Origin: Acidobacteriota bacterium
Lineage (GTDB): Bacteria > Acidobacteriota > Aminicenantia > UBA2199
Assembly: GCA_030837085.1 (NCBI GenBank)
Contig: JAUPLE010000150.1
Span: 3,016 to 67,015, forward strand
Length of the DNA: 64,000 nt
Direction of reading: 5' to 3'
Positions 8,420 through 63,477 of this stretch are shown here, one piece after another. The notes under the pieces were generated by a model. It was not told the DNA's origin and did no database searches. It saw only the letters and a program-made list of their open reading frames with translations. A program made the translations under genes and the position numbers. Position 1 is the first letter of the stretch; the number at the start of each line of letters is the position of its first letter.

Positions 8420-17454
<9,035 letters not shown>

Positions 17455-17487: not shown

Positions 17488-18429
17488 TTAAAATTCCCAG
17501 GCTCCATCATCCTCAAGTATACTTTTTGTCGGGAATTTTCTTTTCACACGTATATTTTCGTCGATATATTTTCCAATGTCTTTAAACTCAACCAAAGGCG
17601 GGACTGCATTTTTATGGAGTTTCATCCAACGCTCATCCGCTTTGACAATATCCTGCAATGAATACGGATTGGGGAGATTTAGTTTCTTAATATGTTCGGT
17701 AAATCTCGCCATCCTGCGATACCTTTCTTCTCTTGTGGGTTCGCAATCCAGGTCTCTTTTTTGAAGGAGCAGCAAATGTCTTGCTTTCTCGGGAAAAACA
17801 AGATAGCTTTTTCCCACCCACTCAGCGGAACTTACCTGCCCACCCGAATAATACCAATATGGATTTGTTTCAGCCTGGTAAATGTAATTCTTTAGTTCTG
17901 TAACAATATCAAAAGAATAAACCTTTTGATGTCCCGGGAGTTCGCCCCGTAAAAGCTTTAGAAACAGTATTTCACCTTCGCCGATTATGAATTTGTCGAT
18001 ATACGGTGTCCTTTCAATAAAAAATTCCAGGACCACCGAATCGATAGCAAGTTGGTCGTCAAAAACGCCCCCACCCATTACTGTCTTGATATGGGGATAT
18101 TTCTCCCTGGTGAGGTTAAAGACAAATAAAGACGCGGGGAGCGATCCCTTGAGTACAGAGAGGCACAATAACGCCGGTTTTTCTTCAGACAATATTTGAA
18201 GGATAAACATCCCCAGCCTGAAATAAAACTTATCTAGAATAAGCACTAGTTCCCGTGCCCGGGAATCATCGATATCTAAATAGAATGCCTGATAAAATAG
18301 TATTTTTACCAACTCGAGGTACTCTCCTTCATCTCTATAATGGATATGGGCCATCATATGATTGATTAAGACATCTTTTCCGATGTTATAAAAATTGCTT
18401 CTTTTATTTTGGGGGAAATATCTCTTCAT
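17488..18429 (-). CDS. Stand-alone cobalamin (B12)-binding-domain-like protein with no radical-SAM cysteine motif. A longer form (start 18631-18633) is interrupted by an in-frame TAG at 18580-18582.
   Basis: TVMGGGVFDDQLAIDSVVLEFFIERTPYIDKFIIGEGEILFLKLL matches the class-B rSAM B12-binding segment (GG....D.VV.GEGE). No CxxxCxxC anywhere. The in-frame upstream sequence encodes the canonical start of this domain (see finding). Confidence 0.55.
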   Translation of the reverse strand: MKRYFPQNKRSNFYNIGKDVLINHMMAHIHYRDEGEYLELVKILFYQAFYLDIDDSRARELVLILDKFYFRLGMFILQILSEEKPALLCLSVLKGSLPASLFVFNLTREKYPHIKTVMGGGVFDDQLAIDSVVLEFFIERTPYIDKFIIGEGEILFLKLLRGELPGHQKVYSFDIVTELKNYIYQAETNPYWYYSGGQVSSAEWVGKSYLVFPEKARHLLLLQKRDLDCEPTREERYRRMARFTEHIKKLNLPNPYSLQDIVKADERWMKLHKNAVPPLVEFKDIGKYIDENIRVKRKFPTKSILEDDGAWEF

Positions 18430-42162: not shown

Positions 42163-42231
42163 TTTTCAATGGCTACCCTCTACAAGGTTGTTGGGGAATA
42201 CTTACCCAACGCTGAAAACGGCTGCTTTATA

Positions 42232-45200: not shown

Positions 45201-47943
45201 CCGGTAATTTTCCCCCGTTGTTCATGATTGCGGTCATCAACTCCGCCATGGTAATCTCGCCTTCCTCCAAGACAGCAAGATCGATATTAGTATCTTGCAG
45301 CATAATGTCGTAACTGCTGGTCGCGTAAGGTCCACCGGCAATAATAGGCCCATCGAAACCCCATTGACGAATTAAAGCGAGGCTTTTGTGGCAAAAGTTC
45401 CTGAAGTAATTCATACTACGCACGCCAATAATATCGGGTTTGAAATTTTCCACTAGTGCCTTCATCTCGGCATAGTTATCGAAATCTACCTGGGATTTAG
45501 CTATCTTTCCAGTAATCCGTTCCCCAAAGATTTTATTCAAATAGGTCAACAAATACATCAGCCCCAAAGGCGGGTCTACTACATGGTACATCTCCAGTCT
45601 TTCATGTGAAAAATGCTGCGATAGATCCAGTAACAGCAGACGTGTGGAGGAAGGATTATTTTTATGTACGGGGAAATATTGCCTCACTTTTTCATTAAAA
45701 TTTTCTACTTTCCCGTAATCTTCGGGTAAAAACTCCCCTTTGATCTCATCCCTGGCGATGCCGATATAATTAAGCAAGTCTAAAAAAGTTTTGATATCTA
45801 CCGGGAGGTAACTGTTGTACTTTTGAACCAATTCATCTTCTGTTAGCATAGCCATTTGATTGGGCAGCACATTTCGCAATCGTTCTTTGTTCAGAAAAAA
45901 TTCTCCCAGATACTCTGCCTGACATTGGCGAGTAAAACTCTCCGAGAAGGGCAAGGTATAAGGTAGTTCATGGTATCCCAGGTCCATTGATTTCACAATA
46001 GATTCCTCAGAGATGCCGTGCTCCATGGCAAATCGAGCCATGGCGGTGTTGGGGTAAATTTTTAATATGTGCATATAGCCGAAAGGAAGCCAGCGGAAAC
46101 TTTTTATAAATTCCAATGAAGCCCTGGCTTCTTCTTCGGTCTCAGTGGGGAAACCGTGCATAATTTGAACTCCCAGTATAGCCCGTGGATAGTTTTCGAT
46201 AATATATTCGACATTCCTATGCAGCCTTTCGATATTCACATTCTTGCGGATCAATTTTTGCAGCCGGGGGGAGGCGGTCTCCAATGCCAGGTCCATTGTA
46301 ACTGCTCCAGCTTCCATCATGAGGTCGATAAAATCCGGCGTCAGGATATCCCCCCGGATGCCGTTGGGATAGTGCATGTGTATTTTTAATTTGTTTTTGA
46401 TCACCAATTGGTAAAATTTACCGATTTCCTTTTTATTGAAATTAGGCAGGTCATCGGTGAATCCAAATCGCCGAATGCCCATATTGTAATACATATTGAC
46501 TTCCTCGAAAAGGTTCTCGCCTGAGCGCAGCGAGTATTTATCGGGCCAGATTTTAAAACAATAGAGGCATTTAAAAATACATCCCCTACTGAATTGAACT
46601 GTAATGCTGTTTTTAACCATGGATTGTCCGATATAAGGATGATACTTTTCATAATCCACCAATGAACGATTGGGGAACTGCAGTGTATCTAGGTCCATCA
46701 CCTGAGGTCGTTTAGGGGTAACGATTTTTTTACTACATCTTCCTTCAAAATTCTGAAAATTGATATACTTAAATTTACAAATCAGTTCATCTTTGGTTAG
46801 TAATAGAGAGGCACTGCTGTCATCCAGCATAGTGAGGCTTCGTGCTTCTGGCAAATCTGCGCTAATAGGTAGATAAGCCCCCCCGGCTTTTAGAATTGCC
46901 AGTATGCTCACCACCATATCCAAGGAATTATCCATCAGGATGCCTGCAATTTTGTCTGATCCGAGCCCTCTTTTTCTCAACATTCGTGCCAGCCGATTTG
47001 CCATCTCATTTAATTGGTTGTAAGACAGGCATTGAATTCCATCCGTCGCCACAACAGCGATTTTGTGGGGTGTCTTTTCCACCTGCTCTTCAAATAAGAG
47101 ATGAAGGGTTTTCTGATTCGGGTAGTCAGCATCGGTACGATTAAAATGAAACAAAAGTTGATTTCGTTCTTCTTCTGAAAGAAAATTTACAAGGGATAAT
47201 GGGACATTAACCCCAGGCAACGCACGGTTCAATAAATGAATTAAGTTAGAAATAATCCCTTGAATAGTACTTTTCCGATAAACCAGAGGATTGTACTCTA
47301 CCTTCCCTTCAATACTCCCTCCATCTACTCGGAGAAAAGAAAAAATCAAATGAAGGTGGAGATGAAGGCGTTGCAAATATTTTGGCTCATGAATATTTTC
47401 AAGTAGTACCACTGTATCAAATAACCGGAAATCCCCCTCAGCGGCAGGTATATTCAACTGTTCTGCCAAAATCTCCACCGGGAAATTCTGGTGTTCCACT
47501 GCCTCTTGAAGGGTCTCTCTTACTCGCAGCAGGAGATCCTTAAAAGTCATGCCATCACTCAACTGTGCCCTTACAGCCAGGAGTGTATTGATAAACTCGC
47601 GATCAGCTTCCTGCTTATAGATGGGCGTTCCGACAATGATATCGTTTATTCCTGTATATTTATTTAATAATTGCATCAGGCCTGCCAGCAAAAGAATATG
47701 TAGTGTGTAATCATTGCCGCCGCAGATATTCATTATACTGGACGTCAGAGAGTCACTAAATTTAAAATCTACTTCCTCCGGTTCTTTGGGTTGATACCCG
47801 GGGACACTGTGTTTTATCACAAAATCATATGGAAAACTGCTCTTTATCCATTCGCCAGCCAAATGCTTTAACCAATAATTTTTTTCTTTAAGATTCTGAT
47901 TGGCTGCGATCAATTGCTCTTCTGAATAATATATACTTCTCAT
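42232..47943 (-). CDS. NRPS module Clobe - A[rSAM-B12 insertion between a2 and a3] - T - C (1903 aa), tail ...ELEAEFDY; paralog of 36478..42162
   Basis: A1/A2 LSYNQLNEMANRLA and LKAGGAYLPIS. Insertion with SRGCIFKCLYCFKIW and B12 segment. A3 LAYIIYTSGSTGIPKG, YRSGDQARW, GRVDQQVKIRGFRIELGEIE. T FFDLGGHSLKA. C MHHIISDGVSQ. Confidence 0.85.
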   Translation of the reverse strand: MRSIYYSEEQLIAANQNLKEKNYWLKHLAGEWIKSSFPYDFVIKHSVPGYQPKEPEEVDFKFSDSLTSSIMNICGGNDYTLHILLLAGLMQLLNKYTGINDIIVGTPIYKQEADREFINTLLAVRAQLSDGMTFKDLLLRVRETLQEAVEHQNFPVEILAEQLNIPAAEGDFRLFDTVVLLENIHEPKYLQRLHLHLHLIFSFLRVDGGSIEGKVEYNPLVYRKSTIQGIISNLIHLLNRALPGVNVPLSLVNFLSEEERNQLLFHFNRTDADYPNQKTLHLLFEEQVEKTPHKIAVVATDGIQCLSYNQLNEMANRLARMLRKRGLGSDKIAGILMDNSLDMVVSILAILKAGGAYLPISADLPEARSLTMLDDSSASLLLTKDELICKFKYINFQNFEGRCSKKIVTPKRPQVMDLDTLQFPNRSLVDYEKYHPYIGQSMVKNSITVQFSRGCIFKCLYCFKIWPDKYSLRSGENLFEEVNMYYNMGIRRFGFTDDLPNFNKKEIGKFYQLVIKNKLKIHMHYPNGIRGDILTPDFIDLMMEAGAVTMDLALETASPRLQKLIRKNVNIERLHRNVEYIIENYPRAILGVQIMHGFPTETEEEARASLEFIKSFRWLPFGYMHILKIYPNTAMARFAMEHGISEESIVKSMDLGYHELPYTLPFSESFTRQCQAEYLGEFFLNKERLRNVLPNQMAMLTEDELVQKYNSYLPVDIKTFLDLLNYIGIARDEIKGEFLPEDYGKVENFNEKVRQYFPVHKNNPSSTRLLLLDLSQHFSHERLEMYHVVDPPLGLMYLLTYLNKIFGERITGKIAKSQVDFDNYAEMKALVENFKPDIIGVRSMNYFRNFCHKSLALIRQWGFDGPIIAGGPYATSSYDIMLQDTNIDLAVLEEGEITMAELMTAIMNNGGKLPDDEVLKNIQGIAFLEKDEKSRLRQRCREVVLSDRIADILYGESNQNPEPINNSNDLAYIIYTSGSTGIPKGALIQHRNIVNQLTGLKKKFQLDASFNYLLLAAITFDVSVMHLFSALTTGAKIFLVSEEVKKDPLKLWPFIHDNKINILNIVPAFMKVLLENIEKDKIWIKYLFVGGDTFSPELYVALKETFRTESILNIYGPTETTINAALYLCDGITLNQRIPIGKPLMNYRLYILDNDFNPVPIGGQGELCISGEGVARGYLNQPQLTAEKFIPNPFVERAIMYRSGDQARWLPDGNIEFLGRVDQQVKIRGFRIELGEIEKHLREMEDIKEAVVLVKEDERGDKNFCAYVVSSRLQVASEIRDCLGAKLPNYMIPTYIVQVDKMPLTASGKIDTRGLRKMTLQVKAEYIPPTTEVERKLVQIWSDVLGIAENTISLNANFFDLGGHSLKATILISKIHKTFDVKIPLVQLFKTPTLMGLSGYITMKDARNDKDKKAKYLSIDSVEKKEYYPLSPAQERLFFFQQMNPDSISYNLTKILVFEGEVDKDRLKNTFKKLIQRHESLRTSFELIDGEPAQRIFDDIAIELEQYDDGYDSSDSPREAGKRIQRFVRAFDLSQVPLLRVGITKSKNGGYILMVDMHHIISDGVSQQVLEQDYNALYVGNQLPPLKLQYKDYSQWQHQQSETNAFKRQQEYWLKQLAGEIPRLKMPLDYPRTFLQSFEGRVIAFELDAEITMALNEMARQEESTLFMVLLSIYYILLFHVSHQEDILVGTATAGRGHADLEKIIGMFVNMLALRNFPSGEKRFVDFLDEVKLRSLEAFENQDYRFEDLIEKVAQGRDIGHHLLFDVVFAMENMSKIVPQEPPLPVSQSQVAVKAPIIGFENNTTKFELTLTANERGEKLYFTFQYCTKLYRAETISRLIKYFKAIVSSVLVNPRQKISEICILSETDREELIKKMRGDDYSCVDVVQSASERTTELEAEFDY
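45124..46671 (-). other. Embedded radical-SAM core followed by a B12-binding domain inside the A domain
   Basis: CxxxCxxC encoded at 46558-46581 (revcomp gga tgt att ttt aaa tgc ctc tat tgt = GCIFKCLYC). rSAM motifs GIRRFGFTDD, ALETASPRLQKLIRK, MHGFPTETEEEA. B12 motifs LLLLDLSQ..DPPLGLMYLLTYLNK, PIIAGGPYATSSYD, DLAVLEEGEITMAELM. Confidence 0.8.
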
Positions 47944-47965: not shown

Positions 47966-50900
47966 TTAAAAATTAAAATTTACCTCCGGCATATTAACCT
48001 GAGCCGTCTCCAGCCGGTGAGAAACTTTGATGTCTTTTAGTTTAATATTTTTATTTTCAGTCACAATACGAGAAATTTCTTCATAATGTTTGGCAAATCT
48101 CTCAATAGTTTCCCTTTTAAATAACTTTGTACAATATCTTAATGTAAAATGAACAACCTCAGAAATTTCATTAGCATGAATAATAATATCAAATTGTGTG
48201 GTCTTCACCTCTATAGGATAGAGACTAAAAACCAAATTACCAAGTCCCGGTCCCTCTTTGGGTACATTTGAATTCTCGACATAAATATTATGGAGGGTAA
48301 AATGAGTATCAAATAATACCTGCCGTCCGGCATCCCGCTGGATACCGAGCAGGTTAACCAGTTCATCGAATTGATAATCTTGGTTTTCATAGGCTTTTAA
48401 TGCATTGGTTTTTACTTCTTTTAGAAAATCAAGAAAGGTAATTTCTCCGTAGGGGTGATTACGCATAGCCAATGTATTCACAAAAAATCCGATAACATGC
48501 TCCAGGTCTACATGGGGACGCCCCGCGCTGGAACTTCCCACCACTATATCTTCCTGCCCGGTGTATTTATACAAAAGGATATTATAAATAGCTAATAATG
48601 CCATGTAAAGGGTGGCCCCCACTTTTGAGGCAATTTCATAAATGTCCGCTATTAGATTTTTATCTAGGACAAATATGATGGTATCTCCTTCAAAGCTCTG
48701 GACCTTCTGCCTAGGGTAATCGGTAGATAAATTGAGCGTCGGGATATCACCGGAAAAGACATTTAGCCAGTATTCTTCTTGCTTTTTGAGAACACCGGAT
48801 TCTCTTAGATTATTTTGCCAGATGGAAAAATCTTTATACTGGATTCTTATAGAGGGAAGTTCCATTCCGGCAAACAATGATATAAATTCTCTGATATATA
48901 GCTGGAATGATGTCCCGTCACTAATGATATGATGCATATCGTATATTAACAGATGGTTCTCTTCTGCCAATTTTAACAGCCCCACCCTCTGCAAGGGAGC
49001 TTTACCCAGATCAAAAGGCTGCACAAAAGCATTGATGATGTCTTTGATTTGCTGGTTTGAAATGGCGTGGATTTCGCTGTTTGCGTCTATCTGGGTAATT
49101 TTTAAACCGACACTTTCATGCACTCTCTGTACCGGATGATGATCCACCATTTCAAAGGAAGTCCGAAGCAACTCATGCCGTTCTATCATTCGATTAATTG
49201 TGCTCTCTAAGCATTCATAGTCTAGGGGACCATCAACTTGATACACCCCCGGGATATTATCACTGGTTGTAGTCTTGATCTGACTTAACAAAAACATGCG
49301 CATCTGTGCGGAGGATAATGGATAATATTCCTTTTTTTCTACCGGCTGAATCGAGGTATATATCTCTTCCTCCGATCCCATCAAGTACCGGGATAATTCT
49401 CTTATAGTTGGAGTTTTAAACACTTCTCCCACAGGTAATTTCATATTTAATTCTTTATTTACCCTTGCAGCCATTATCGTGGCGTTTAACGAGTGCCCAC
49501 CTAGTTCGAAGAAATTGGAATCGATGCCGAAGGTATTTTTTTCCTTCCCCAGCAATGCAGACCATATCTTCATGAGTGTTTCTTCAACATCATTCCGGGG
49601 AGCTACCAATTCCTTCCTTGTTTCTAATCCAGGTTCCGGCAGTGCTTTTATATCAACCTTACCATTTGGAGTTAATGGCAACCGCTCCAGCGAAATAAAA
49701 TACATTGGGATCATATAATCCGGTAATTCTTCCCGCAGGTATTCCCTCAGTTCTTTGGATAAAGAGCCTGTATCCGGCATCCTATTATTTACTTCAAATG
49801 TATATTCAACTCCATTAAACAGCGCTTCGTAAAATTGTTTCATGGAAATATCTTTCCTTTCGAGGTTCCCGCTTGATCCGGGAGAATAGATCATATACGC
49901 AGGCCGATCCGGCCGGATTTCAGTGGGAATTTCGATCATATTGGGAGTATCGTCTTCCTTTTCCATTTCTTCGATATGGGTTATATTAATAATGGCTATA
50001 TTCATATTAACTCTATTTCTCAATTTTTCCGCTGTGTCCACCCAATCATCATTGGTTACTATAATTCGACTTTCGGAATCTTCAAGGATATTAGTCAATT
50101 CTTCCAGGGAAGAAGAAGTATCTAAATGAACATATACCTTACCGGATTTCATCGCTCCAACGGCTCCAATTGCCAGGTGAGTATCCTGGTTGACTAGTAG
50201 TGCAATGGTTTCCAGTTTTTCTTCTTCTCTTTTTTCTTCCTGGATATAAGTGACCGAATGGGCTTTTTCCCTTTGTTCTTCAAGGGCTTTTCGCATTTCC
50301 ATACCTCTTGAACCACACACCGGGCAATCGGGATCCGGTTCTATTTTAAGCTCTTCCAGGAAATTCCCTCTCCAACCGATTTCCCAATCAAATCCCTGCT
50401 CTTTACATAGCCTTATGAAATGATCACTGAAAAGATGAGTCATTGCTTTATATCCTGGAGTAAAAGCCAGGTCAGTGGCGGCACCTCTTTGATTAAAATA
50501 AAAAAATTTGTTATAAGCCGGTTCTTCAAATCCCAATAAAATTTTCAATGCTTCATTTACTACTACTCCAGTACTGATGAAAAGGGATGTTGATACGACA
50601 GGAAGGGGGTTTTTACTATAATTCGCGACATAATGTTTCATCGCATTAACTATAGTTTCCAGCTTTGCCTTATCGAATAGGCAGTGATAACATGGAGTAT
50701 GGGGTGAATGTAATACCGCCGCATAAGCATTAATATCCGTCATAGATATGATCAAATGAGGAATTTGTTTAACAATTGCACATTCAGATAAGATGAACTT
50801 ATCTGCCGGGCCATCGAACATATCGAAAATAATGGCCGAATCTCCTACTAGTTCAAATACGTTTTCACGGGTTAGTTTCTGGGTGCATGGTACTACCTTA

Positions 50901-53900
50901 ACATGGGGATTGGTTTTGCCGACCGTAATTTGGGCAGAGATTGCTTTGTTCATTCCCAGGCGTTCGTCGTTATGTAAGAACTGACGGTTTAAGTTACTTA
51001 ATTCAACTGTATCAAAATCGCAGATTTTAATAGTCCCAAAACCAGCTAATGCCAGTTGAGTAACTGTGGGAGAAGCACCGCCGCCGGCACCGGCAACAAA
51101 TACGGTGGTGCTCTTCAATTTTTCCTGGGAAGCCTGGCCCCAACCGGCCAAAAGCATCTGGCGAATGTACCTGATTCGTTCTTGCTTCGATAATTTGTAT
51201 CGGTCATCATACTTCTCAAGGATGAGACAGGCCAACCGATTGGCATATTGATCCAAGGTTTCAAAGGTTAACGAGCGCTTGTTGGATTTTACAGCGATTT
51301 TCTTGCGGTTCATTCCCGCTTGCTCAATATAATGTTTTTTAATTCCTAACTCCCGGAAAGTAATTACTTTTTTCTGATTTTCCATTTTCTCTTTCCGGTC
51401 GACCCGAGGAGGAGATATCCCCTCATTTGCTTTTGAAACGATGTAGGCACATATGTATTTCTCTCCCTGCTCGTCGCCAGGTTTGACACCGAGCATTGCG
51501 GCAGCCTTTACAATCACCAGCGCATCATCCACAATAGGATGTTTACGCAACCGATTCTCTATCTCTCCCAATTCGATCCGGTATCCCCTAATCTTTACTT
51601 GTTTATCGATTCTTCCAAGGAATGCTATAGTACCATTGGACAGCCAGCAGGCAAGATCGCCAGTACGGTAGGCAGGATAATGAAGTGACGAAGTGATGGT
51701 GGAATGCAGTGATGGAAAGACAAACTTATCTATGGTTAATTCCGGTTGGTTCAAATAGCCCCTAGCCAGACAGGTTCCAGATATGCACAATTCACCCGGA
51801 ACACTTATGGGTAATAAATTCAAATCCTTCCCCAATACATATATATTGGCATTATAGATGGGTTTTCCTATTACCGGTTGTTGTTGATATTTTTCAAAAT
51901 TTTCAAAATCGACAAAGGTGGAAATGCAACCGATGGTAGCTTCCGTGGGACCGTAATGATTCATGATATGAAGATGGGGACAAAGTGCATGGGCTTTTTC
52001 AAGGTCTTTCACGTTAATGGGTTCACCACCTATCACAGCCAATCGCAACGTCCGGCATTTCAGCAGGGAAAAACCGGGCGCATTAATAATTGCTGAGAAA
52101 AGAGAAGGAGTTACCTTTAAATAAGTAATTTCCTTCTGCAGAATGTAGTCCAATAACCCGTCGGGCAATAAATACATTTCCCTGGATAATATGTGTAATT
52201 GGCCGCCGTTTAAAATCGAGGGGAATAATGTAGTATAACCTAGGTCAAAGGCAAAAGAAGATGTCAATATGGCCTTATCACATGGAGTTAAACTTGTGGT
52301 TTTGGTGAACCAATGAACATAATTGACTACGCTCCGATGGGAAAGGATAGTGCCTTTTGGTTTACCGGTGGTGCCGGAGGTGTAGATGACGTAAGCATCA
52401 TTGTCTGCTAAGGCAGTTAATCCGAAGGTTGAGATTGAGAGAGATGATAGATTTGAGATATCGATTATTCCAAAAGATACCTTCTCTATCCCAGCTTTAA
52501 GCTTAGCTATGGTTTCTGGTGTTGCCACCAAAGTTTTTGCATTGCTATCCTTTAACATATATTCAATTCGACCACTGGGGAATTCCGGATCTATTGGCAT
52601 AAAAGCACAGCCAGCTTTCATTATTCCCAAAATTCCTACAGGTATATCTACAGAACGCTCCAACATGATGCCCACAACTTGATTCGGAGTTACCCCCTTT
52701 AACTTTAACTCCATTGACAGTTGATTTGCTTTTTCATGCAACTGTCGATAAGTCAGCACTTGGTTAACAATTAATCCTCTTCTGATGTCTTTTTTGTATT
52801 GATCTACCTTTTTATTCATTTCCAGATAAAAGCTGGTGATCATGGAATTCATTCGATCATCTTTAAAATAAATGTATGGATAATTAAGTTCTTCAGTTGT
52901 TAAATAATTAGAGTTATTGTTAAAGCTTTTTTGACTGTAGGTTAAAAACTCCTCAAAATTAGAGGCATAAGCATACATCTGGTATTTTCCAGCATCCTCT
53001 AAGATTGGTGCCCCCGGTTGAGCATGCAAACGCGCCCAATGTAGTTCACCAAAACATGAATGGTTATTTATAATTTTAGACAGCAATTGTTTACTAGGCT
53101 CAATATCTTCCTGAGTAAAACAAGGGAGACCAGTGATTAAATTCAACCTTACTTCAATATTAGGATATTCATCACATCGGTCCATAAACTGCATAATATC
53201 TTCATCAGTAGGCTGGGGCTTGACCAATCCCATGGAGAATAACAACTTCCTGTGCGTCTCGGAGGGAGTACAAATATCGAAATCCCAGTATACATATTTA
53301 AAGGTTTGGCTGACCAACTTGATCAATTGCGCGGATGGGGGTGTTAATGTAGAAAAAATACAAAAGTGCCCGGAGAGATCAATTCCCTCCCATATCTGTC
53401 GACAATATTCAACTAGACGCTTATCCAGGATATCAAATTCGAACATAAAAGTAGATGTATATGGTTTGGCCTCCATTATATCTTTCCTGACTTCTTCTAC
53501 TCCACGTTTAAATACTTTTTTTCGGTTGAATGCCTTTTGATGTACTCGATTACAACCGCCACAGTATAGGCAGTTCATTTCACACCCTTTATGGGTAACG
53601 ATAAAAAATGTGCCCAAACGTGAAGTATAATGGGAAAGTAATATTTCATCCAGGTGTGATAGATAAACTTCCCGACTGACGGTCTCATCCTGAACATAAC
53701 CGATTGGATTCACAATAATCCGCCCGTCATTTTTATATACGCAATTGGGGATACTACCAATATCCTCTCCCCGGCATATTCTCAACAGTGGGTCCTCACC
53801 ATCCCCTCGAACCAGGATATCAAAACAGTCATACATCATTATTTTTTCCGGGTAATAGGAAGCAGTATTGCCCCCCACAACAATTTTTATTTCTAATGAA

Positions 53901-55630
53901 TTATTTCGGGCATATTCTTTTATGATTGTCCCCATTTCGATTACCCGTGCGATGTAGAGAAACCACTTCATACTAATGGCAACAATTTCCGGCTGAACCT
54001 GCTGCAAAAGTGTCTCAATATTTTTTTTCATGGAAGCATAGTCCGTACTATTATCATAGAACTGGCAGCGTGTTTTGATCCCCTTCCGCATTAAATAAGA
54101 ACCCAGGTATAATAAACCAGTAGAAGGAGTCCCCGATGTATCTCCCAGAAGTAACACTTGGGCTTTAGTTATTTCTTCATCTTTAAATTTCCGCCAAAAC
54201 CAGTCTATACTTAATTCTGTGACCACTTCCTTTTCAAAACTACCGCTGTGCGACTTCGACGATCGGGCTTCCATTCCATCGTCATTAACTCCCACCAGAT
54301 CGATCAAATGGTTCCGGTAAAGAGTTTGAACCAATGGAACCAAATCTTCAAATTCATCCACAGTATAAATCTCCGGCCGGTTATTGAATTGAAAGAAAAC
54401 TTCCAAGAGGTCGGTCTTGTTCATAGTATATATGAGAAATGCAGCTTCATTATCTTCCATGGTTTTAATTTGTTTATAAATGGTTTTTAAATTTCTCCTG
54501 CCGTCAAAAAGTACAATTAACTCAGCCATATTCTTATTGACAATCACACTGTTGTGCCAATTTGTTTTTAACAATTTCCAACCACTTTTAGAGAAAGGCT
54601 GCTCCAGATCAGCATGATAAATAAAAAGATTCTTATTAAAACAACAGGTTTCCATTTGTTTATTCACCCCGACGTCTGTGCCTATGGATTCCAACAAGTT
54701 ATATATATCACTCAGATCAATAGGAGAAAACACAGCGGTTTTATCCGGAGTTTTTTCCACCTGCTCTTCAAACCATTGATGGATGGTCTTTCCAGAAGGG
54801 TATCCTGTCTCAGTATTATTAAAATCCAGTAGAATCTGCTTTTTCTCTTGCGGAGTTAGCATGCCCAGGTGAGAAAGCGGTAAATCTACATTAAAAATGG
54901 CCTCCCGAAGCAGTTGGTTAAAATGGCCGACCAGCTTTTCTAGGGTGGTTTTCTTATACAATGCCGTGTTATATTCCAAAATTCCTATGATATAGGGAAT
55001 ACTCCCATCTGCTTCTTCTATCCGGAAAATAAATGTCAGACTGCACGGAGTATGTCGGAGATATTTTTTATTATGGATATTTTCAAGTAGAACCGCCACA
55101 TCAAAAAGTGGCGATCCCTCTTCAAATGTATCTGCATCAAACTTTAGTTTTTCTGTTAACAGTTCGATCGGATAATTTTGATTATCAATAGCATCGGTGA
55201 GGGTTTGTCTTACCTGCAATATGAATTCTCTAAAAGAGACATTCTTTCCCACCCTATTTCTCAACACCAATATCGTATTTATAAAATCACCGTCCATTTC
55301 TTGTTCATAAATAGGTGTTCCGACAATAATGTCTCGATTGCCGATATACTTGTGCAGTAAAAGGATGACGCCAGCAATAAACAGCAAGTTCAAGGTGAAA
55401 TTTGAACCTTTACTCAACACCATTAATTTAGCTGCAATTTCCTCATCAAATTTAAAAATGGTGGAATCAAACTCAGCGGCTTCATCAATATAGGTACTTG
55501 TTTTTTTGTAGTCATAGGGGAAATGGGCTTTTACCAATTCTCCAGCCAATTGCTTTAGCCAAAAATCCTTTTCCTTTAAATTTTGTTCTGCGGCTATTCT
55601 CAACAATTTTGGATAATTCTTATGGATCAT
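47966..55630 (-). CDS. NRPS module Clobe - unknown 200-aa region - [B12 then rSAM] - A[ThiF/E1-like domain plus degenerate A fragment at a8-a9] - T - C (2554 aa), tail ...EVNFNF
   Basis: Clobe (DFWLKQLAGE, FINTILVLRN, NQNYPIE, SPLFDV). A core A1 LTYRQLHEKANQLS, A3 AYVIYTSGTTGKPKG, A5 NHYGPTEAT, A7 YRTGDLACW, A8 GRIDKQVKIRGYRIELGEIE, A9/A10 LPDYMIP..PNGKVD. T FFELGGHSLNA. C MHHIISDGTSF. Confidence 0.85.
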   Translation of the reverse strand: MIHKNYPKLLRIAAEQNLKEKDFWLKQLAGELVKAHFPYDYKKTSTYIDEAAEFDSTIFKFDEEIAAKLMVLSKGSNFTLNLLFIAGVILLLHKYIGNRDIIVGTPIYEQEMDGDFINTILVLRNRVGKNVSFREFILQVRQTLTDAIDNQNYPIELLTEKLKFDADTFEEGSPLFDVAVLLENIHNKKYLRHTPCSLTFIFRIEEADGSIPYIIGILEYNTALYKKTTLEKLVGHFNQLLREAIFNVDLPLSHLGMLTPQEKKQILLDFNNTETGYPSGKTIHQWFEEQVEKTPDKTAVFSPIDLSDIYNLLESIGTDVGVNKQMETCCFNKNLFIYHADLEQPFSKSGWKLLKTNWHNSVIVNKNMAELIVLFDGRRNLKTIYKQIKTMEDNEAAFLIYTMNKTDLLEVFFQFNNRPEIYTVDEFEDLVPLVQTLYRNHLIDLVGVNDDGMEARSSKSHSGSFEKEVVTELSIDWFWRKFKDEEITKAQVLLLGDTSGTPSTGLLYLGSYLMRKGIKTRCQFYDNSTDYASMKKNIETLLQQVQPEIVAISMKWFLYIARVIEMGTIIKEYARNNSLEIKIVVGGNTASYYPEKIMMYDCFDILVRGDGEDPLLRICRGEDIGSIPNCVYKNDGRIIVNPIGYVQDETVSREVYLSHLDEILLSHYTSRLGTFFIVTHKGCEMNCLYCGGCNRVHQKAFNRKKVFKRGVEEVRKDIMEAKPYTSTFMFEFDILDKRLVEYCRQIWEGIDLSGHFCIFSTLTPPSAQLIKLVSQTFKYVYWDFDICTPSETHRKLLFSMGLVKPQPTDEDIMQFMDRCDEYPNIEVRLNLITGLPCFTQEDIEPSKQLLSKIINNHSCFGELHWARLHAQPGAPILEDAGKYQMYAYASNFEEFLTYSQKSFNNNSNYLTTEELNYPYIYFKDDRMNSMITSFYLEMNKKVDQYKKDIRRGLIVNQVLTYRQLHEKANQLSMELKLKGVTPNQVVGIMLERSVDIPVGILGIMKAGCAFMPIDPEFPSGRIEYMLKDSNAKTLVATPETIAKLKAGIEKVSFGIIDISNLSSLSISTFGLTALADNDAYVIYTSGTTGKPKGTILSHRSVVNYVHWFTKTTSLTPCDKAILTSSFAFDLGYTTLFPSILNGGQLHILSREMYLLPDGLLDYILQKEITYLKVTPSLFSAIINAPGFSLLKCRTLRLAVIGGEPINVKDLEKAHALCPHLHIMNHYGPTEATIGCISTFVDFENFEKYQQQPVIGKPIYNANIYVLGKDLNLLPISVPGELCISGTCLARGYLNQPELTIDKFVFPSLHSTITSSLHYPAYRTGDLACWLSNGTIAFLGRIDKQVKIRGYRIELGEIENRLRKHPIVDDALVIVKAAAMLGVKPGDEQGEKYICAYIVSKANEGISPPRVDRKEKMENQKKVITFRELGIKKHYIEQAGMNRKKIAVKSNKRSLTFETLDQYANRLACLILEKYDDRYKLSKQERIRYIRQMLLAGWGQASQEKLKSTTVFVAGAGGGASPTVTQLALAGFGTIKICDFDTVELSNLNRQFLHNDERLGMNKAISAQITVGKTNPHVKVVPCTQKLTRENVFELVGDSAIIFDMFDGPADKFILSECAIVKQIPHLIISMTDINAYAAVLHSPHTPCYHCLFDKAKLETIVNAMKHYVANYSKNPLPVVSTSLFISTGVVVNEALKILLGFEEPAYNKFFYFNQRGAATDLAFTPGYKAMTHLFSDHFIRLCKEQGFDWEIGWRGNFLEELKIEPDPDCPVCGSRGMEMRKALEEQREKAHSVTYIQEEKREEEKLETIALLVNQDTHLAIGAVGAMKSGKVYVHLDTSSSLEELTNILEDSESRIIVTNDDWVDTAEKLRNRVNMNIAIINITHIEEMEKEDDTPNMIEIPTEIRPDRPAYMIYSPGSSGNLERKDISMKQFYEALFNGVEYTFEVNNRMPDTGSLSKELREYLREELPDYMIPMYFISLERLPLTPNGKVDIKALPEPGLETRKELVAPRNDVEETLMKIWSALLGKEKNTFGIDSNFFELGGHSLNATIMAARVNKELNMKLPVGEVFKTPTIRELSRYLMGSEEEIYTSIQPVEKKEYYPLSSAQMRMFLLSQIKTTTSDNIPGVYQVDGPLDYECLESTINRMIERHELLRTSFEMVDHHPVQRVHESVGLKITQIDANSEIHAISNQQIKDIINAFVQPFDLGKAPLQRVGLLKLAEENHLLIYDMHHIISDGTSFQLYIREFISLFAGMELPSIRIQYKDFSIWQNNLRESGVLKKQEEYWLNVFSGDIPTLNLSTDYPRQKVQSFEGDTIIFVLDKNLIADIYEIASKVGATLYMALLAIYNILLYKYTGQEDIVVGSSSAGRPHVDLEHVIGFFVNTLAMRNHPYGEITFLDFLKEVKTNALKAYENQDYQFDELVNLLGIQRDAGRQVLFDTHFTLHNIYVENSNVPKEGPGLGNLVFSLYPIEVKTTQFDIIIHANEISEVVHFTLRYCTKLFKRETIERFAKHYEEISRIVTENKNIKLKDIKVSHRLETAQVNMPEVNFNF
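49853..50179 (-). other. Degenerate duplicate of an A-domain a2-a3 segment, following the ThiF-like domain
   Basis: LAIGAVGAMKSGKVYVHLD resembles A2 LAILKAGGAYVPLD. PAYMIYSPGSSGNLERKD resembles A3 LAYxIYTSGSTGxPKG but has lost the P-loop Thr/Gly and Lys residues. Confidence 0.5.
50306..51118 (-). other. ThiF/MoeB (E1-like adenylyltransferase) domain embedded between A8 and A9 of the A domain
   Basis: VFVAGAGGGASPTVTQLALAGFGTIKICDFDTVELSNLNRQ is the E1 nucleotide-binding signature. Downstream zinc-knuckle CYHC...CPVCGS. DNA checked at 51061-51120. Confidence 0.8.
52931..54163 (-). other. B12-binding domain followed by a radical-SAM core (canonical class-B order), located before core motif A1 of the A domain
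   Basis: B12 motifs AQVLLLGDTSGTPSTGLLYLGSYL, IKIVVGGNTASYYPEKI, DILVRGDGEDPLLRI. rSAM motif THKGCEMNCLYCGGC (CxxxCxxC), followed by about 200 aa of rSAM-like barrel sequence. Confidence 0.75.
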
Positions 55631-60762: not shown

Positions 60763-63477
60763 TTATCCTTTCCCAGCTTCCAGTCGCTTCTGAAGTCGCT
60801 GCCGCCGGTCCATTTTGCCTCTTTCAAGGGCTGCCGATCGATCGCGATGGTCTGCCATTGATACCTCTTTTTTAGCGTTGGGATTTAAATACTCCGCTAA
60901 CGAATGCACGGTGGTATACCGGAACATGCTGACTATCGGTATTTCCAACTGGAATACTTCTCTTAACTTGCCATTTATCCTGATAATATCGAAAGAGGTT
61001 CCACCCACCTCGAAATAGTTGTCGTGGATGCCGACTTTATCCCGGTTTAAAACTTCCTGCCATATCCCGGCGATCTTTTTCTCTATTTCATTTTGTGGGG
61101 CCACATAAGTGGCGCTGGGATCTATTCGTTTGGCCAATAACTCCAGGGCCTTGCGGTCCACTTTCCCATTGAGAGTCAGGGGTATTTTTTCTACTTGCAT
61201 AAAATGCGCCGGAATCATATAGTCGGGCAGTACACCGGCCAGGTATTCCCTCAATTGGGGAATATTAAATTCTTTTTCCGTCGCAATATATGCAAATAGG
61301 GACGGAACAGCGCCAGCGCTTTCCTTAAATAATACTACGGCCCCTTTTATGTCTTCATGCTTCAATAGTTGAGTTTCGATTTCTCCCAATTCGATGCGGA
61401 AACCCCTTATCTTTACCTGGTGATCGATGCGGCCTAAAAATTCGATGTTACCGTCGGGCAACCACCGGGCCAGGTCGCCGGTACGATAAAACTTTGAATG
61501 ATGAGTGATGAATGATGAATGATGAAGATCGATAAATTTTTCCGCGGTTAATTCCGGGCGGTTCAAATATCCCCTGGCTAACCCTACTCCTGAGATGCAC
61601 AGCTCCCCTTTTACTCCAATGGGTTGGAAACGCTGGTTTTGATCTACTATGTGTAAATTGATATTATCGATAGGTCTACCGATTGGTATCTCATTGATGT
61701 TTTCTCCAGCCAAACAATTAAAGAAAGAGACATCTACGGTGGCTTCCGTAGGGCCGTATAAATTTACCAAATTGACGCCGAATTTGGCGGTCAACAATTG
61801 TCGGAACATTGCAACCTGACGCCCCCCTAATGCTTCCCCACTGGAAAATACCTGTCTTAAATTGGAAAGCCCGGTCAGGTTGACGGAATATTCACAATAT
61901 TCCAGAAAAACCTGCAACATGGAGGGGACAAAGTGTATTGTACTGATCTTGTTTCTTGCGATGGTTTTTATTATCGCTTCCGGGCTTTTTTCTTCATCGA
62001 CGCCCAGAAGGCAAAGCGAAGCGCCCTGGAAGGACCACCAGAATAATTCCCATACAGACACATCGAAAACTGCAGGTGTTTTTTGCAAGATCACATCCCC
62101 TGGGTTGATTGGGTAATATTTTTGCATCCAATGGAGCCGATTCACCACTGAGTGATGTTCGATCATTACACCTTTTGGATTCCCTGTGGATCCAGATGTG
62201 TAAATGACATAGGCGATATTTGAAGAATTGGAAGCGTGGCAGCATGGAAGCGTGGAAGGGTGGAAATTAGAAGGTTCTAAAGAATCTATAAAAATAATTT
62301 CAACATCCTTCTTCTCTTTTGCTATTCCACTCTTCCAATCTTCCGCCCTTCTTATCATTATCTTTGCTGCACTGTCCTTCAACATGTAATTGATGCGTGC
62401 TTCCGGGTATTGCGGGTTGATGGGCAAATATGCGCCCCCGGATTTTAAGATACCGAAAATTCCGATAATCATCTCCAGGGACCGTACCACCATAATACCC
62501 ACTATGATATTGGGTTTCACTCCTTTTTCTCTTAATAGGCCGGCCAATTTACCGGAGCTTTCGTTCAATTCCCGATAAGAAAGATACGTCTTCTCTTCTT
62601 CTCTTCTTCTCTTCTTCGCATCTCCTTCTGCTCCTACAACCGCGATATGGTCCGGCGATCTCTCAGCCTGCGCCTCGAACAATTGATGTATGGTTTTATC
62701 CCTTGGATATTCCGCTGCCGTATCGTTAAATTCATATAATAATTGCTGTTTTTCTTCAACGGTCAAGACATCCAACAGATACACCTTCTGTCCCGGGTTC
62801 TCTACCATGCCATCCAGCAAGTGGAGCACATTCCTGCTGAATCGTTCAGCCGTTTCCCCGGCATGGGGGGATGAAGGATATTTTACTGTTATAACCATTT
62901 GTGTATTAGACTCAGATAGGACAAACACCAGGTCGAAACGGTCAAGATACCGGTTTTCCACTTGCAGCGAATCATAAGTTAGAGCAATCTTGAAGATGTT
63001 TATAGATCTGTTATTATTTATTTCCTGTAATTCCGCTAAAATACAATCTAAAGAGAATTCCGAATAATTAACCGCCTCGATCACTTCCTGTTTAGTTTGA
63101 TCAATCAACTCTTTAACGGTCAAAGGAGAGGAAATCCGGTTCCTGCAAAATAGTATATTCCTATCCTTCCCGTCATTTCCGCCTGCTACAGGGGGCATTA
63201 TACCCACGATCAAATCTTCAATACCTGTATATTTGTTCAGAACGATATTCAAGGCGCTGAGAAACAAAATAAACAAACCGATATCGGAATTTTTAGCTAT
63301 TTTTTTCAATTTAACTATTAACTCCTCCGGGATGTTTAATTGAAAGGAAAGGGCCTGAGATTTCGCTGTGGTTTCTTTTATTATATCATGTATTGATGGC
63401 AACGATATTACCGGCAATTCTCCCGACAGTTTTTTCAGCCAGTATTCGTCGATAACTGTCTTTTTTATCTGCTCCAT
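60763..63477 (-). CDS. NRPS module Clobe - A - T (904 aa) with a basic C-terminal tail, feeding the downstream KS
   Basis: Clobe (DEYWLKKLSGE, NYSEFSLD). A motifs LSYRELNESSGKLA, AYVIYTSGSTGNPKG, FDVSVWELF, NLYGPTEAT, YRTGDLARW, GRIDHQVKIRGFRIELGEIE, LPDYMIP, LNGKVDRKAL. T YFEVGGTSF. Tail ...RRQRLQKRLEAGKG. Confidence 0.85.
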   Translation of the reverse strand: MEQIKKTVIDEYWLKKLSGELPVISLPSIHDIIKETTAKSQALSFQLNIPEELIVKLKKIAKNSDIGLFILFLSALNIVLNKYTGIEDLIVGIMPPVAGGNDGKDRNILFCRNRISSPLTVKELIDQTKQEVIEAVNYSEFSLDCILAELQEINNNRSINIFKIALTYDSLQVENRYLDRFDLVFVLSESNTQMVITVKYPSSPHAGETAERFSRNVLHLLDGMVENPGQKVYLLDVLTVEEKQQLLYEFNDTAAEYPRDKTIHQLFEAQAERSPDHIAVVGAEGDAKKRRREEEKTYLSYRELNESSGKLAGLLREKGVKPNIIVGIMVVRSLEMIIGIFGILKSGGAYLPINPQYPEARINYMLKDSAAKIMIRRAEDWKSGIAKEKKDVEIIFIDSLEPSNFHPSTLPCCHASNSSNIAYVIYTSGSTGNPKGVMIEHHSVVNRLHWMQKYYPINPGDVILQKTPAVFDVSVWELFWWSFQGASLCLLGVDEEKSPEAIIKTIARNKISTIHFVPSMLQVFLEYCEYSVNLTGLSNLRQVFSSGEALGGRQVAMFRQLLTAKFGVNLVNLYGPTEATVDVSFFNCLAGENINEIPIGRPIDNINLHIVDQNQRFQPIGVKGELCISGVGLARGYLNRPELTAEKFIDLHHSSFITHHSKFYRTGDLARWLPDGNIEFLGRIDHQVKIRGFRIELGEIETQLLKHEDIKGAVVLFKESAGAVPSLFAYIATEKEFNIPQLREYLAGVLPDYMIPAHFMQVEKIPLTLNGKVDRKALELLAKRIDPSATYVAPQNEIEKKIAGIWQEVLNRDKVGIHDNYFEVGGTSFDIIRINGKLREVFQLEIPIVSMFRYTTVHSLAEYLNPNAKKEVSMADHRDRSAALERGKMDRRQRLQKRLEAGKG
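61496..61523. repeat. Tandem heptamer gaatgat gagtgat gaatgat gaatgat in an A domain; encodes HHSSFITHHS before YRTGDL
   Basis: Read directly. Confidence 0.8.
62591..62614. repeat. Perfect 3x tandem octamer (ttctcttc)3 in the A-domain N-terminal coding region; encodes KKRRREEEK
   Basis: Read directly. Nearby at 62221-62270 there are tggaagcgtgg-type imperfect repeats. Confidence 0.8.

What the first reader, a model, noticed from the sequence alone, without database searches (positions are those of the whole stretch)
52931..54163. Third embedded B12/radical-SAM unit, in canonical order (B12 then rSAM), placed before core motif A1 of the next module
In 47966..55630 the A-domain leader (FEEQVEKTPDKTAV) is followed by about 190 aa of unassigned sequence. 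Next comes a B12-binding segment (LLLGDTSGTPSTGLLYLGSYL, IKIVVGGNTASYY, DILVRGDGEDP) and then a CxxxCxxC radical-SAM core (HKGCEMNCLYCGGC). Only after that do A1 (LTYRQLHEKANQLS) and the rest of an intact A domain follow. The same enzymatic unit therefore appears in the cluster in two topologies and at two insertion points: before A1 here, and between a2 and a3 in the two downstream modules. This argues for independent recruitment events rather than a single duplicated cassette. The unassigned 190-aa region (about 54160-54730) may be a substrate- or partner-recognition element.
Basis: partly seen in the sequence, partly recalled or inferred. Interest (0 to 1): 0.8.

Follow-up and report, generated by a model that had tools for sequence, protein, structure and literature searches.

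The report
B12-radical-SAM enzyme built into NRPS adenylation domain
A peptide-assembly-line enzyme carries, spliced into the very start of its amino-acid-activating domain, a complete vitamin-B12-type radical-SAM enzyme plus a small peptide-recognition-like domain, a built-in tailoring unit that I could not find described in the literature and that recurs in many uncultured anaerobes.

Summary
In ORF 47966..55630 (-), 658 aa separate the A-domain leader (aa 287-300) from core motif a1 (aa 959). This insert has four parts:
- a folded 150-aa N-domain
- a linker
- a Rossmann-type B12 domain (PF02310, above the Pfam cut-off)
- a radical-SAM barrel with CxxxCxxC at aa 683-690

The AlphaFold model (pLDDT 87) superposes on MgmA, TsrM, OxsB and TokK. 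The three structural cobalamin-binding motifs (AxSxKW, GG, GE) are present and invariant or nearly so in the family.

The p1 unit and the two downstream units belong to different radical-SAM families, with at most 40 bits of cross-similarity. Each family has free-standing relatives that keep its own domain order. Independent recruitment is therefore supported, but "the same unit" is not.

The A domain is not otherwise uninterrupted: a ThiF-like unit sits between a8 and a9. The pre-a1 unit recurs in about 25 loci from Aminicenantes, Clostridia and other MAGs.

The most likely function is in-cis cobalamin-dependent C-methylation of PCP-bound Asp; this is inferred. I found no literature precedent. 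I rate it a new variant of interrupted A domains.

The parts
54821..55630 (-). N-terminal fragment resembling only the C-terminal lobe of a condensation domain (aa 1-270). It has no HHxxxDG motif.
   Evidence: blastp against the N- and C-lobes of the full C domain of the same protein; Pfam Condensation.
54731..54820 (-). A-domain leader (aa 271-300, including FEEQVEKTPDKTAV 287-300). It corresponds to the first ~14-18 positions of Pfam AMP-binding.
   Evidence: blastp against the canonical A domain of the Ser module aligns A5 1-30 to aa 271-300. In LgrA the same leader is followed 4 residues later by a1.
54275..54730 (-). N-domain of the insert (aa 301-452). It is a folded winged-helix / PqqD-like (RRE-like) domain with the conserved motifs DLxDIYxxLE, CCFKKNPY, LLKTHxHN and NLIEL.
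54161..54274 (-). Low-confidence linker (aa 453-490).
   Evidence: pLDDT 43-62 in the model; 50% identity to the ortholog P0147.
53711..54160 (-). Cobalamin-binding-type Rossmann domain (aa 491-640). It has five parallel strands, a long His-less loop after beta1, A551-x-S553-x-K555-W556, G586-G587 and G611-E612.
   Evidence: PF02310 at 39.9 bits against a cut-off of 32.1. Model secondary structure. Invariant or nearly invariant columns S253, K255, W256, G286, G287, G311, E312 in insert numbering. Motif definitions from PMC9204698.
53021..53710 (-). Radical-SAM (beta/alpha)6 core (aa 641-870), with the [4Fe-4S] motif C683-x3-C687-x2-C690 at nt 53561-53584.
   Evidence: Motif located. The three Cys are invariant in the B12-rSAM-only alignment and at least 90% conserved in the wider one. 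TIGR04190 E 9e-32. Foldseek to MgmA, TsrM, OxsB and TokK.
52757..53020 (-). C-terminal helical extension of the rSAM unit (aa 871-958). It ends 8 residues before a1.
   Evidence: Helices to insert residue 650 in the model. No Cys-rich SPASM/twitch pattern.
51497..52756 (-). A-domain core a1-a8 (aa 959-1378). Specificity code DLTKVGHIGK (Asp).
   Evidence: Pfam AMP-binding 956-1293 matches profile positions 19-384. Motifs a1 and a3-a8 located. Code from a mafft alignment to GrsA.
49754..51496 (-). Second insertion between a8 and a9 (aa 1379-1959). It holds a ThiF/MoeB-like E1 domain (aa 1488-1714, nt 50489-51169), flanked by a degenerate A fragment on the C-terminal side and by an a1-like stretch seen by eye on the N-terminal side.
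   Evidence: Pfam ThiF E 6e-47 and an AMP-binding fragment. NCBIfam MoeB/ThiF E 2e-40. blastp places the degenerate A fragment at aa 1809-1922.
49382..49753 (-). a9-a10 (LPDYMIP at 1969, NGKVD at 1989) and the PCP domain (aa 2018-2083, GGHS at 2044). The PCP is the presumed carrier of the substrate of the embedded units.
   Evidence: Pfam AMP-binding_C and PP-binding; motifs.

Best explanation
The segment is a complete class-B-type (cobalamin-binding) radical-SAM enzyme. It is preceded by its own small winged-helix domain. The whole unit is inserted as one 658-aa cassette into the first beta-hairpin of an otherwise functional Asp-activating adenylation domain, between the leader strand and core motif a1.

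It most likely acts in cis as an assembly-line tailoring domain. After the A domain loads Asp onto the downstream PCP, the phosphopantetheine arm delivers the thioester to the rSAM active site. There a 5'-deoxyadenosyl radical abstracts an unactivated C-H, probably the beta-C-H, and methylcobalamin donates a methyl group. The N-domain would help position the tethered substrate, the nascent chain or a partner domain.

What is shown: the anatomy, fold, cofactor motifs, insertion site, conservation and recurrence.
What is inferred: the chemistry (methylation), the substrate (aminoacyl- or peptidyl-S-PCP) and the role of the N-domain.

The cassette was recruited separately from the permuted rSAM-B12 units of the two downstream modules.

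The confidence of 0.55 is for the whole statement including methylation. I would put about 0.97 on a B12-type rSAM unit embedded before a1, and about 0.8 on its being catalytically active.
For: Anatomy and insertion site. In LgrA the leader and a1 are 4 aa apart; here they are 658 aa apart.

Fold: the model has pLDDT 87 and pTM 0.88. Foldseek gives MgmA E 9e-18, TsrM 3e-17, OxsB 1e-14 and TokK 2e-13, with alignments of about 450-660 columns that span both domains.

Profiles: PF02310 is above its cut-off. TIGR04190 matches collinearly at E 9e-32, and all 10 family members tested hit it best.

Cofactor features: the three cluster Cys are conserved, as are AxSxKW, GG and GE. These match the Cbl-binding motifs defined from the OxsB, TsrM and TokK structures (PMC9204698).

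Selection: against the 63%-identical ortholog P0147, the B12 domain is 70% identical, the rSAM core 68% and the N-domain 65%. The A core is 57%. All A motifs are present.

Recurrence: the same C-lobe / leader / N-domain / B12-rSAM / a1 layout occurs in about 25 loci from Aminicenantes, Deferrimicrobium, Clostridia, Bacillota, Chloroflexota and Bacteroidales MAGs. It sits next to A domains of varied specificity.

Precedent for the chemistry: ThnK, TokK and CysS act on pantetheinyl substrates (PMC8950095). The free-standing B12-rSAM DscE has been studied as the C-methylase of the nonribosomal discodermins (PMC12858407).

Independent origin.
Against: - No member of this rSAM subfamily has been characterised. 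The score against the nearest curated family is far below its cut-off (110 against 500 bits).
- The generic Pfam Radical_SAM model is not significant (E 0.07).
- No canonical GGE SAM-binding motif is visible at beta2 (FMFEFD).
- B12-type rSAM enzymes also catalyse non-methylating reactions (OxsB, BchE). AprD4, which is among the fold hits, is a diol dehydratase rather than a methylase.
- The product of the cluster is unknown.
- Association with several A specificities (Asp, Tyr-like and others) means the modified position cannot be read from the substrate.
Confidence: 0.55

Rival explanations
1. The unit is a functional embedded radical-SAM domain, but it catalyses something other than methyl transfer. 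Candidates are C-alpha epimerisation, C-C/C-S/C-O cross-linking of the chain, dehydrogenation, or a rearrangement of the Asp skeleton. It may cooperate with the ThiF-like domain in the same A domain.
For: B12-rSAM folds support ring contraction (OxsB) and dehydration (AprD4), both among the fold hits. BchE-type cyclases appear among the weak NCBIfam hits. All 7 related loci that have a ThiF insert plus the pre-a1 unit carry an Asp code, so a joint Asp transformation is conceivable. The subfamily is uncharacterised.
Against: The pre-a1 unit occurs 21 times without ThiF and with non-Asp codes, so its chemistry is not Asp- or ThiF-specific. Most characterised Cbl-rSAM enzymes are methylases (PMC9204698, PMC8950095), and the Cbl motifs are intact.
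Confidence: 0.25
2. The Rossmann domain no longer binds cobalamin. It would be an AprD4- or MiaB-like N-terminal domain, and the unit would work as a plain radical-SAM enzyme.
For: AprD4, MiaB and RimO are significant fold matches (E 1e-10 to 1e-13). RimO is among the few sequence-level PDB hits.
Against: PF02310 is above its cut-off. The GG, GE and AxSxKW motifs used by OxsB, TsrM and TokK to hold base-off Cbl are invariant or nearly so. No MiaB-type N-terminal Cys triad is conserved. The best fold and profile hits are Cbl-dependent enzymes.
Confidence: 0.1
3. The cassette is a catalytically dead relic that now serves only as a scaffold or docking element.
For: Weak generic rSAM profile score. 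No GGE motif. Truncated or degenerate versions exist: P0001 ends after a3, and Clostridium P0008 keeps only A stubs.
Against: The cluster Cys and Cbl motifs are conserved across phyla. The B12 and rSAM parts are better conserved than the A core between orthologs. The ORF is intact at 2554 aa. The unit recurs in about 25 loci.
Confidence: 0.06
4. All three units in the cluster descend from one cassette that was duplicated inside the cluster and then circularly permuted or relocated.
For: All three combine a B12-type domain and an rSAM core, and all lie in consecutive modules.
Against: The p1 unit shares only 23-29% identity (27-34 bits) with the p2/p3 units. The p3 unit is 64% identical to the ~550-aa database protein P0028 and 49% identical to the isolate-genome protein P0131, which has the same rSAM-then-B12 order. 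Both layouts occur as separate, conserved module types in other genomes, and sometimes in the same A domain (L008, L012, L025).
Confidence: 0.02

Closest known systems
Cobalamin-dependent (class B) radical-SAM enzymes with solved structures: MgmA (9ccb), TsrM (6wte), TokK (7kdx), OxsB (5ul3)
   Same: N-terminal Rossmann Cbl domain followed by a CxxxCxxC (beta/alpha)6 barrel. GG and GE motifs and a Ser-containing downstream motif. Joint superposition of both domains.
   Different: Only 12-16% identity. The sequence-level PDB hits are marginal (E 0.003-0.014). This unit is not free-standing: it is embedded in an NRPS A domain and preceded by a winged-helix domain. The residues at the lower-axial position are Lys/Trp.
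TIGR04190 (Ta0216 family) B12-binding/radical-SAM proteins
   Same: Best-scoring curated family for all 10 members tested. The match is collinear over profile positions 38-443 of 554.
   Different: Score 110 bits against the equivalog cut-off of 500, so this is not a member. That family is itself uncharacterised.
Interrupted adenylation domains (Labby 2015; Lundy 2020, PMC8341866), e.g. A domains carrying M domains between a2-a3, a6-a7 or a8-a9
   Same: A tailoring enzyme is spliced into a surface loop of an A domain that keeps all its core motifs. It presumably acts on the PCP-tethered substrate. Multiply interrupted examples exist.
   Different: The cargo is a ~660-aa metallo-radical enzyme with two cofactors, not a ~400-aa SAM methyltransferase. 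The site is upstream of a1, which the catalogue does not list. The words radical, B12, cobalamin and ThiF do not occur in that survey.
Trans-acting B12-rSAM methylases linked to nonribosomal peptides or pantetheinyl substrates: DscE (discodermin), CysS (cystobactamid), ThnK/TokK
   Same: Radical C-methylation chemistry applied to NRPS products or Ppant-linked substrates (PMC12858407; PMC8950095).
   Different: Those are separate proteins. Here the enzyme is covalently part of the module.
RiPP recognition elements (PqqD-like): TbiB1, TfuB1, PbtF-RRE, PqqD, and the RRE domains of NisB, LynD and MccB
   Different: No PF05402 or any other sequence signal. Foldseek finds nothing significant. There is an extra N-terminal hairpin and a 35-aa insertion between helices 2 and 3. 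No leader peptide exists in an NRPS.
Mmp10-type enzymes (rSAM N-terminal, Cbl domain C-terminal)
   Same: A precedent for the reversed order seen in the p2/p3 units (PMC8950095).
   Different: Relevant to the neighbouring units only. The unit of this finding has the canonical order.

Membership tests
Cobalamin-dependent (class B) radical-SAM enzymes | CxxxCxxC [4Fe-4S]-binding motif at the start of a (beta/alpha)6 partial TIM barrel | tested here: met
   C683/C687/C690. Invariant in the B12-rSAM alignment and at least 90% conserved in the wider one. Six beta/alpha repeats in the model. Foldseek hits to rSAM enzymes.
Cobalamin-dependent (class B) radical-SAM enzymes | Rossmann-type Cbl-binding domain N-terminal to the rSAM core | tested here: met
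   PF02310 at 39.9 bits against a cut-off of 32.1, aa 502-615. Five parallel strands in the model. Both domains superpose on TsrM, TokK and OxsB.
Cobalamin-dependent (class B) radical-SAM enzymes | Base-off Cbl-binding motifs: Ser-containing downstream motif after beta3, Gly-Gly on beta4, Gly-Glu at alpha5, long His-less loop after beta1 (PMC9204698) | tested here: met
   A551-I-S553-M-K555-W556, G586-G587, G611-E612, loop GDTSGTPSTG without His. The corresponding columns are invariant or nearly so. Motif definitions.
Cobalamin-dependent (class B) radical-SAM enzymes | Canonical SAM-binding GGE motif at beta2 | tested here: inconclusive
   Beta2 reads STFMFEFD, with no GGE. [quoted passage not shown]
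Cobalamin-dependent (class B) radical-SAM enzymes | Actual binding of cobalamin and Cbl-dependent catalysis | not testable with these tools
   Requires anaerobic reconstitution and assay.
TIGR04190 (Ta0216) equivalog | Score at or above the curated cut-off (500 bits) | tested here: not met
   110.3 bits, E 9e-32. It is the nearest curated family only.
Pfam Radical_SAM (PF04055) | Score at or above the gathering threshold (29.5 bits) | tested here: not met
   13.7 bits, E 0.07 on the excised insert. The p2/p3 units pass with 72 and 71 bits.
Interrupted adenylation domains | Host A domain keeps its core motifs and flanks the cargo on both sides | tested here: met
   Leader (Pfam positions ~1-14) upstream; Pfam positions 19-384 downstream. 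Motifs a1 and a3-a10 present.
Interrupted adenylation domains | Interruption at a catalogued site (a2-a3, a6-a7, a8-a9) by a methyltransferase-type domain | tested here: not met
   The site is before a1 and the cargo is a B12-rSAM unit. Neither is listed in PMC8341866. The second insert in the same domain does use the a8-a9 site, but it carries ThiF.
RiPP recognition element (PqqD-like) | Three-stranded sheet plus three-helix winged-helix fold | tested here: inconclusive
RiPP recognition element (PqqD-like) | Sequence-profile membership (PF05402 or related) | tested here: not met
   No hit at E up to 10 for any of 11 members. No PDB sequence hit.
RiPP recognition element (PqqD-like) | Binds a leader or substrate peptide as an added beta-strand | not testable with these tools
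   Needs binding assays or a complex structure.
SPASM/twitch radical-SAM enzymes | C-terminal Cys-rich motif for auxiliary Fe-S cluster(s) | tested here: not met
   Downstream of the barrel there are only isolated Cys. Only the three cluster Cys are conserved across the whole family.

The most novel reading that the evidence does not exclude
The winged-helix N-domain is a working RiPP-type recognition element transplanted into an assembly line. It would bind the nascent peptidyl chain, or a segment of the synthetase, as an extra beta-strand. The embedded B12-rSAM would then modify the growing peptide by leader-peptide-like logic rather than modifying the monomer. Together with the ThiF-like and second rSAM inserts, which occur as up to three cargo enzymes in one A domain in related loci, this would define a class of anaerobe NRPS modules that carry out multi-step radical and adenylating side-chain chemistry entirely in cis.
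Probability: 0.2. Interest if true: 0.88.

Novelty: new variant of a known kind. Interest (0 to 1): 0.72.

Why it matters
Radical-SAM chemistry on peptides is generally treated as a hallmark of ribosomal (RiPP) pathways or of free-standing tailoring enzymes (for example the review PMC8842026). Here a two-cofactor radical enzyme is hard-wired into an NRPS adenylation domain at a site that the survey of interrupted A domains does not list. It recurs across several uncultured anaerobic phyla.

If it is active:
- It predicts C-alkylated or otherwise radical-modified residues in an unexplored group of nonribosomal peptides.
- It gives a natural template for installing unactivated C-H functionalisation into engineered assembly lines.
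- It offers a tethered-substrate system for studying Cbl-rSAM enzymes.

It also shows that standard domain annotation misses most of this module. The generic rSAM model fails on the unit, and the N-domain has no family.

Tried and rejected
1. Sequence searches for the N-domain found nothing meaningful. I tried Pfam at E up to 10 on 11 members and a PDB profile search.
3. I tested whether the N-domain is the same element as the PqqD-looking C-terminal tail of the free-standing Myxococcaceae homologs, merely relocated. hhalign gave probability 0.1%, so I rejected this.
4. An exact look-up of the p1 protein to identify the source contig found nothing on record. The closest relatives are P0147, 63% identical along the BLAST alignment (JGI metagenome), and Aminicenantes sequences.
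5. The afdb50 fold library was not available.
6. The first pairwise Stachelhaus extraction mis-gapped the p1 code (DLTKRAHICK). I replaced it with a multiple alignment (DLTKVGHIGK).
7. The first PDB profile search was dominated by the flanking A-domain columns. I repeated it on the B12-rSAM part alone.
8. Nine literature searches for rSAM, B12 or ThiF domains inside NRPS A domains found no description. The library excludes most subscription-journal papers, so absence is not proof.
9. I considered a SPASM/twitch reading of the unassigned regions and rejected it for lack of Cys-rich motifs.
Full report
CONTEXT. The window is one long minus-strand NRPS/PKS cluster: every large ORF from 695 to 63955 is on the minus strand. 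Pfam shows C, A, PCP, KS, AT, KR, sulfotransferase, aminotransferase and TE domains, followed by a MacB-type ABC permease. The finding lies in ORF 47966..55630 (-), 2554 aa, here called p1. G+C is about 0.40. The closest relatives come from Candidatus Aminicenantes MAGs and a JGI metagenome, so the source is probably an uncultured anaerobe of that kind. The exact protein is not on record.

OBSERVATION. All quoted motifs are present at the stated places.
- Leader FEEQVEKTPDKTAV: aa 287-300.
- B12 segment: aa 493-614.
- CxxxCxxC: aa 683-690.
- a1 LTYRQL: aa 959.

Alignment to the uninterrupted Ser-activating A domain of the same cluster puts its residues 1-30 on p1 271-300 and its residues 49-471 on p1 959-1378. 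Pfam AMP-binding resumes at profile position 19 at aa 956. In the solved LgrA structure the same leader is followed 4 residues later by a1. So 658 aa (aa 301-958, nt 52757-54730) are inserted inside the A domain, in the turn between its first strand and a1.

WHAT THE INSERT IS. Pfam B12-binding passes its curated cut-off (39.9 against 32.1 bits). The generic Radical_SAM model does not (E 0.07). However, NCBIfam TIGR04190, a B12-plus-rSAM family, matches aa 504-897 collinearly at E 9e-32, far below its equivalog cut-off. All ten family members tested hit it best.

An AlphaFold model built on 21 homologs is confident (pLDDT 87, pTM 0.88). It shows a five-stranded Rossmann domain followed by six beta/alpha repeats. 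Foldseek against the PDB returns Cbl-dependent rSAM enzymes first: MgmA 9e-18, TsrM 3e-17, OxsB 1e-14, TokK 2e-13. MiaB/RimO and AprD4 follow.

The review of OxsB, TsrM and TokK structures defines the base-off cobalamin features: a long His-less loop after beta1, a Ser-containing motif after beta3, Gly-Gly on beta4 and Gly-Glu at alpha5 (PMC9204698). p1 has GDTSGTPSTG, A551-I-S553-M-K555-W556, G586-G587 and G611-E612. These columns and the three cluster Cys are invariant or nearly so across the family. There is no Cys-rich SPASM/twitch element. Sequence similarity to any solved structure is marginal (E 0.003 or weaker), so this is a divergent, uncharacterised subfamily.

Against this:
- Foldseek finds nothing significant.
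- Neither Pfam nor a PDB profile search sees any relative.
- The domain is unrelated by hhalign to the PqqD-looking C-terminal tails of the free-standing Myxococcaceae homologs.

An exhaustive phmmer search of 1.84 billion representative proteins finds only 64 relatives. Nearly all are 1000-5600 aa, with the domain at about residue 285-300. I therefore call it an RRE-like winged-helix domain at fold level, essentially specific to this large-protein context. Its function is untested.

RELATION TO THE OTHER TWO UNITS. In p2 and p3 the inserts lie between a2 and a3, with the rSAM first (CxxxCxxC at 455 and 460) and the B12 domain second. The p1 insert matches them only in two swapped blocks at 23-24% identity. 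Best-HSP bit scores separate two families: 258-872 bits within the p1 type, 494-705 within the p2/p3 type, and at most 40 across.

Each family has free-standing members with its own order. Myxococcaceae proteins of about 570 aa start directly with the B12 domain. P0131 from an isolate Clostridium has rSAM at 62-224 and B12 at 436-516. Mmp10 is a published precedent for the reversed order (PMC8950095). Independent recruitment is thus well supported. The units are not "the same enzyme in two topologies".

RECURRENCE AND SELECTION. A scan of 185,579 species genomes finds 257 loci with a relative. Mapping the window's domains onto the fetched loci shows the same C-lobe / leader / N-domain / B12-rSAM / a1 layout in about 25 loci. 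These come from Aminicenantes, Deferrimicrobium, Clostridia, Bacillota, Chloroflexota and Bacteroidales MAGs.

The ortholog P0147 (2591 aa) is 63% identical along the BLAST alignment. By domain, B12 is 70% identical, rSAM 68% and the N-domain 65%, against 57% for the A core. The cargo is at least as constrained as the host.

Specificity codes of the host A domains vary. p1 is DLTKVGHIGK, which I recognise as the canonical Asp code. Others are DGTITAEVAK (Tyr), DGSSVAEVTK-like, DAWTVAAVCK and more. The unit is therefore not tied to one amino acid.

MECHANISM. Shown: an apparently complete Cbl-type rSAM enzyme sits inside a complete A domain next to a PCP. Inferred: it acts on the PCP-tethered thioester. 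Two analogies support this. M domains in interrupted A domains work that way (PMC8341866). [quoted passage not shown] C-methylation is the commonest Cbl-rSAM reaction, and it is the reaction studied for the free-standing enzyme DscE in discodermin biosynthesis (PMC12858407). Beta-methylation would suit both Asp and aromatic residues. Other radical chemistry cannot be excluded.

COMPARISON AND NOVELTY. The survey of bacterial interrupted A domains lists a2-a3, a6-a7 and a8-a9 sites and M-domain cargo. The words radical, B12, cobalamin and ThiF do not occur in it. Nine full-text searches found no description of an rSAM domain inside an A domain. The library is incomplete, so this is absence of evidence. 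I rate the finding a new variant of a known kind: an interrupted A domain with a new cargo class, a new site and an extra RRE-like domain.

VERDICT.
- The unit is real, conserved and probably active.
- Its chemistry is unproven.

Noticed in passing
window 49754-51496 (-), p1 aa 1379-1959; also L005, L006, L007, L008, L009, L011, L021: The same A domain carries a second, 581-aa insertion between a8 and a9. It is a ThiF/MoeB-like E1 domain (Gly-rich loop, NRQ, two CxxC pairs) flanked by a degenerate A fragment on the C-terminal side and an a1-like stretch, seen by eye, on the N-terminal side. In the related loci, all 7 A domains that have ThiF plus the pre-a1 unit carry an Asp code. The one ThiF-bearing A domain without the rSAM unit has a Glu-like code. 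This suggests activation of the acidic side chain. I found no literature on it.
   Followed up: partly
L008 9083-17740 (one 2885-aa ORF); L012 and L025 around 10000-15000: Related genomes contain A domains with three cargo units at once: pre-a1 B12-rSAM, a2-a3 rSAM-B12 and a8-a9 ThiF. Others contain two different radical-SAM units in one A domain.
   Followed up: partly
window 36478-47943 (-), inserts p2 aa 387-964 and p3 aa 388-948: The a2-a3 units belong to a large family (596+ database hits) that includes many ~550-aa proteins with the same rSAM-then-B12 order, among them one from an isolate genome. The p3 unit is closer to one such protein, P0028 (64% identity), than to the p2 unit (53%).
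   Followed up: partly
window: N-termini of ORFs 60763-63477, 47966-55630, 42232-47943, 36478-42162, 18660-25961, 8416-17454 (all -): Each of these proteins begins with a fragment resembling only the C-terminal lobe of a condensation domain, with no HHxxxDG. The preceding protein (the aminotransferase gene 25995-27374 intervenes before 18660-25961) ends with a complete C domain. The result is an unusual 'full C | extra C-lobe - A' junction at protein boundaries. The paired C-lobe hits upstream of the unit in related loci suggest the same arrangement there.
   Followed up: partly
L002/L003 10001-12412 (Clostridium sp. CF011, P0008, 803 aa): This is a free-standing version of the cassette. It has a degenerate leader, the N-domain, the B12-rSAM unit and only an a1-a2 stub of an A domain. 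It lies next to type II FAS/PKS-like genes (two KS, KR, FabA-like, ACP, acyl-AMP ligase) on an 89-kb record.
   Followed up: no
L027, L034, L038, L039 (Eubacterium / Firmicutes MAGs): In these loci the tblastn match to the p1 insert begins at the B12 domain, with no hit to the window's N-domain, and a divergent A domain follows directly. In L038 both lie in one 1196-aa ORF. These may be intermediates in which the rSAM was fused N-terminally to an A domain.
   Followed up: no
window 27415-36429 (-), aa 2264-2474: A sulfotransferase domain sits between an ACP and a C domain in the PKS/NRPS hybrid protein (A/FAAL-ACP-KS-AT-KR-ACP-ST-C).
   Followed up: no
window 17488-18429 (-): A 313-aa ORF inside the cluster has no Pfam family at E up to 0.001.
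   Followed up: no
P0193 (197 aa, JGI metagenome contig of 23 kb): A short 'hypothetical protein' consists essentially of the N-domain alone (residues 13-143 match). It may be a free-standing form of the winged-helix domain.
   Followed up: no
L001 (Myxococcus sp.), 6467-9719: The free-standing Myxococcaceae homolog lies next to a deoxyhypusine-synthase-like gene and a TetR regulator, not in an obvious NRPS or RiPP cluster. Relatives were found in many Myxococcaceae genomes.
   Followed up: no
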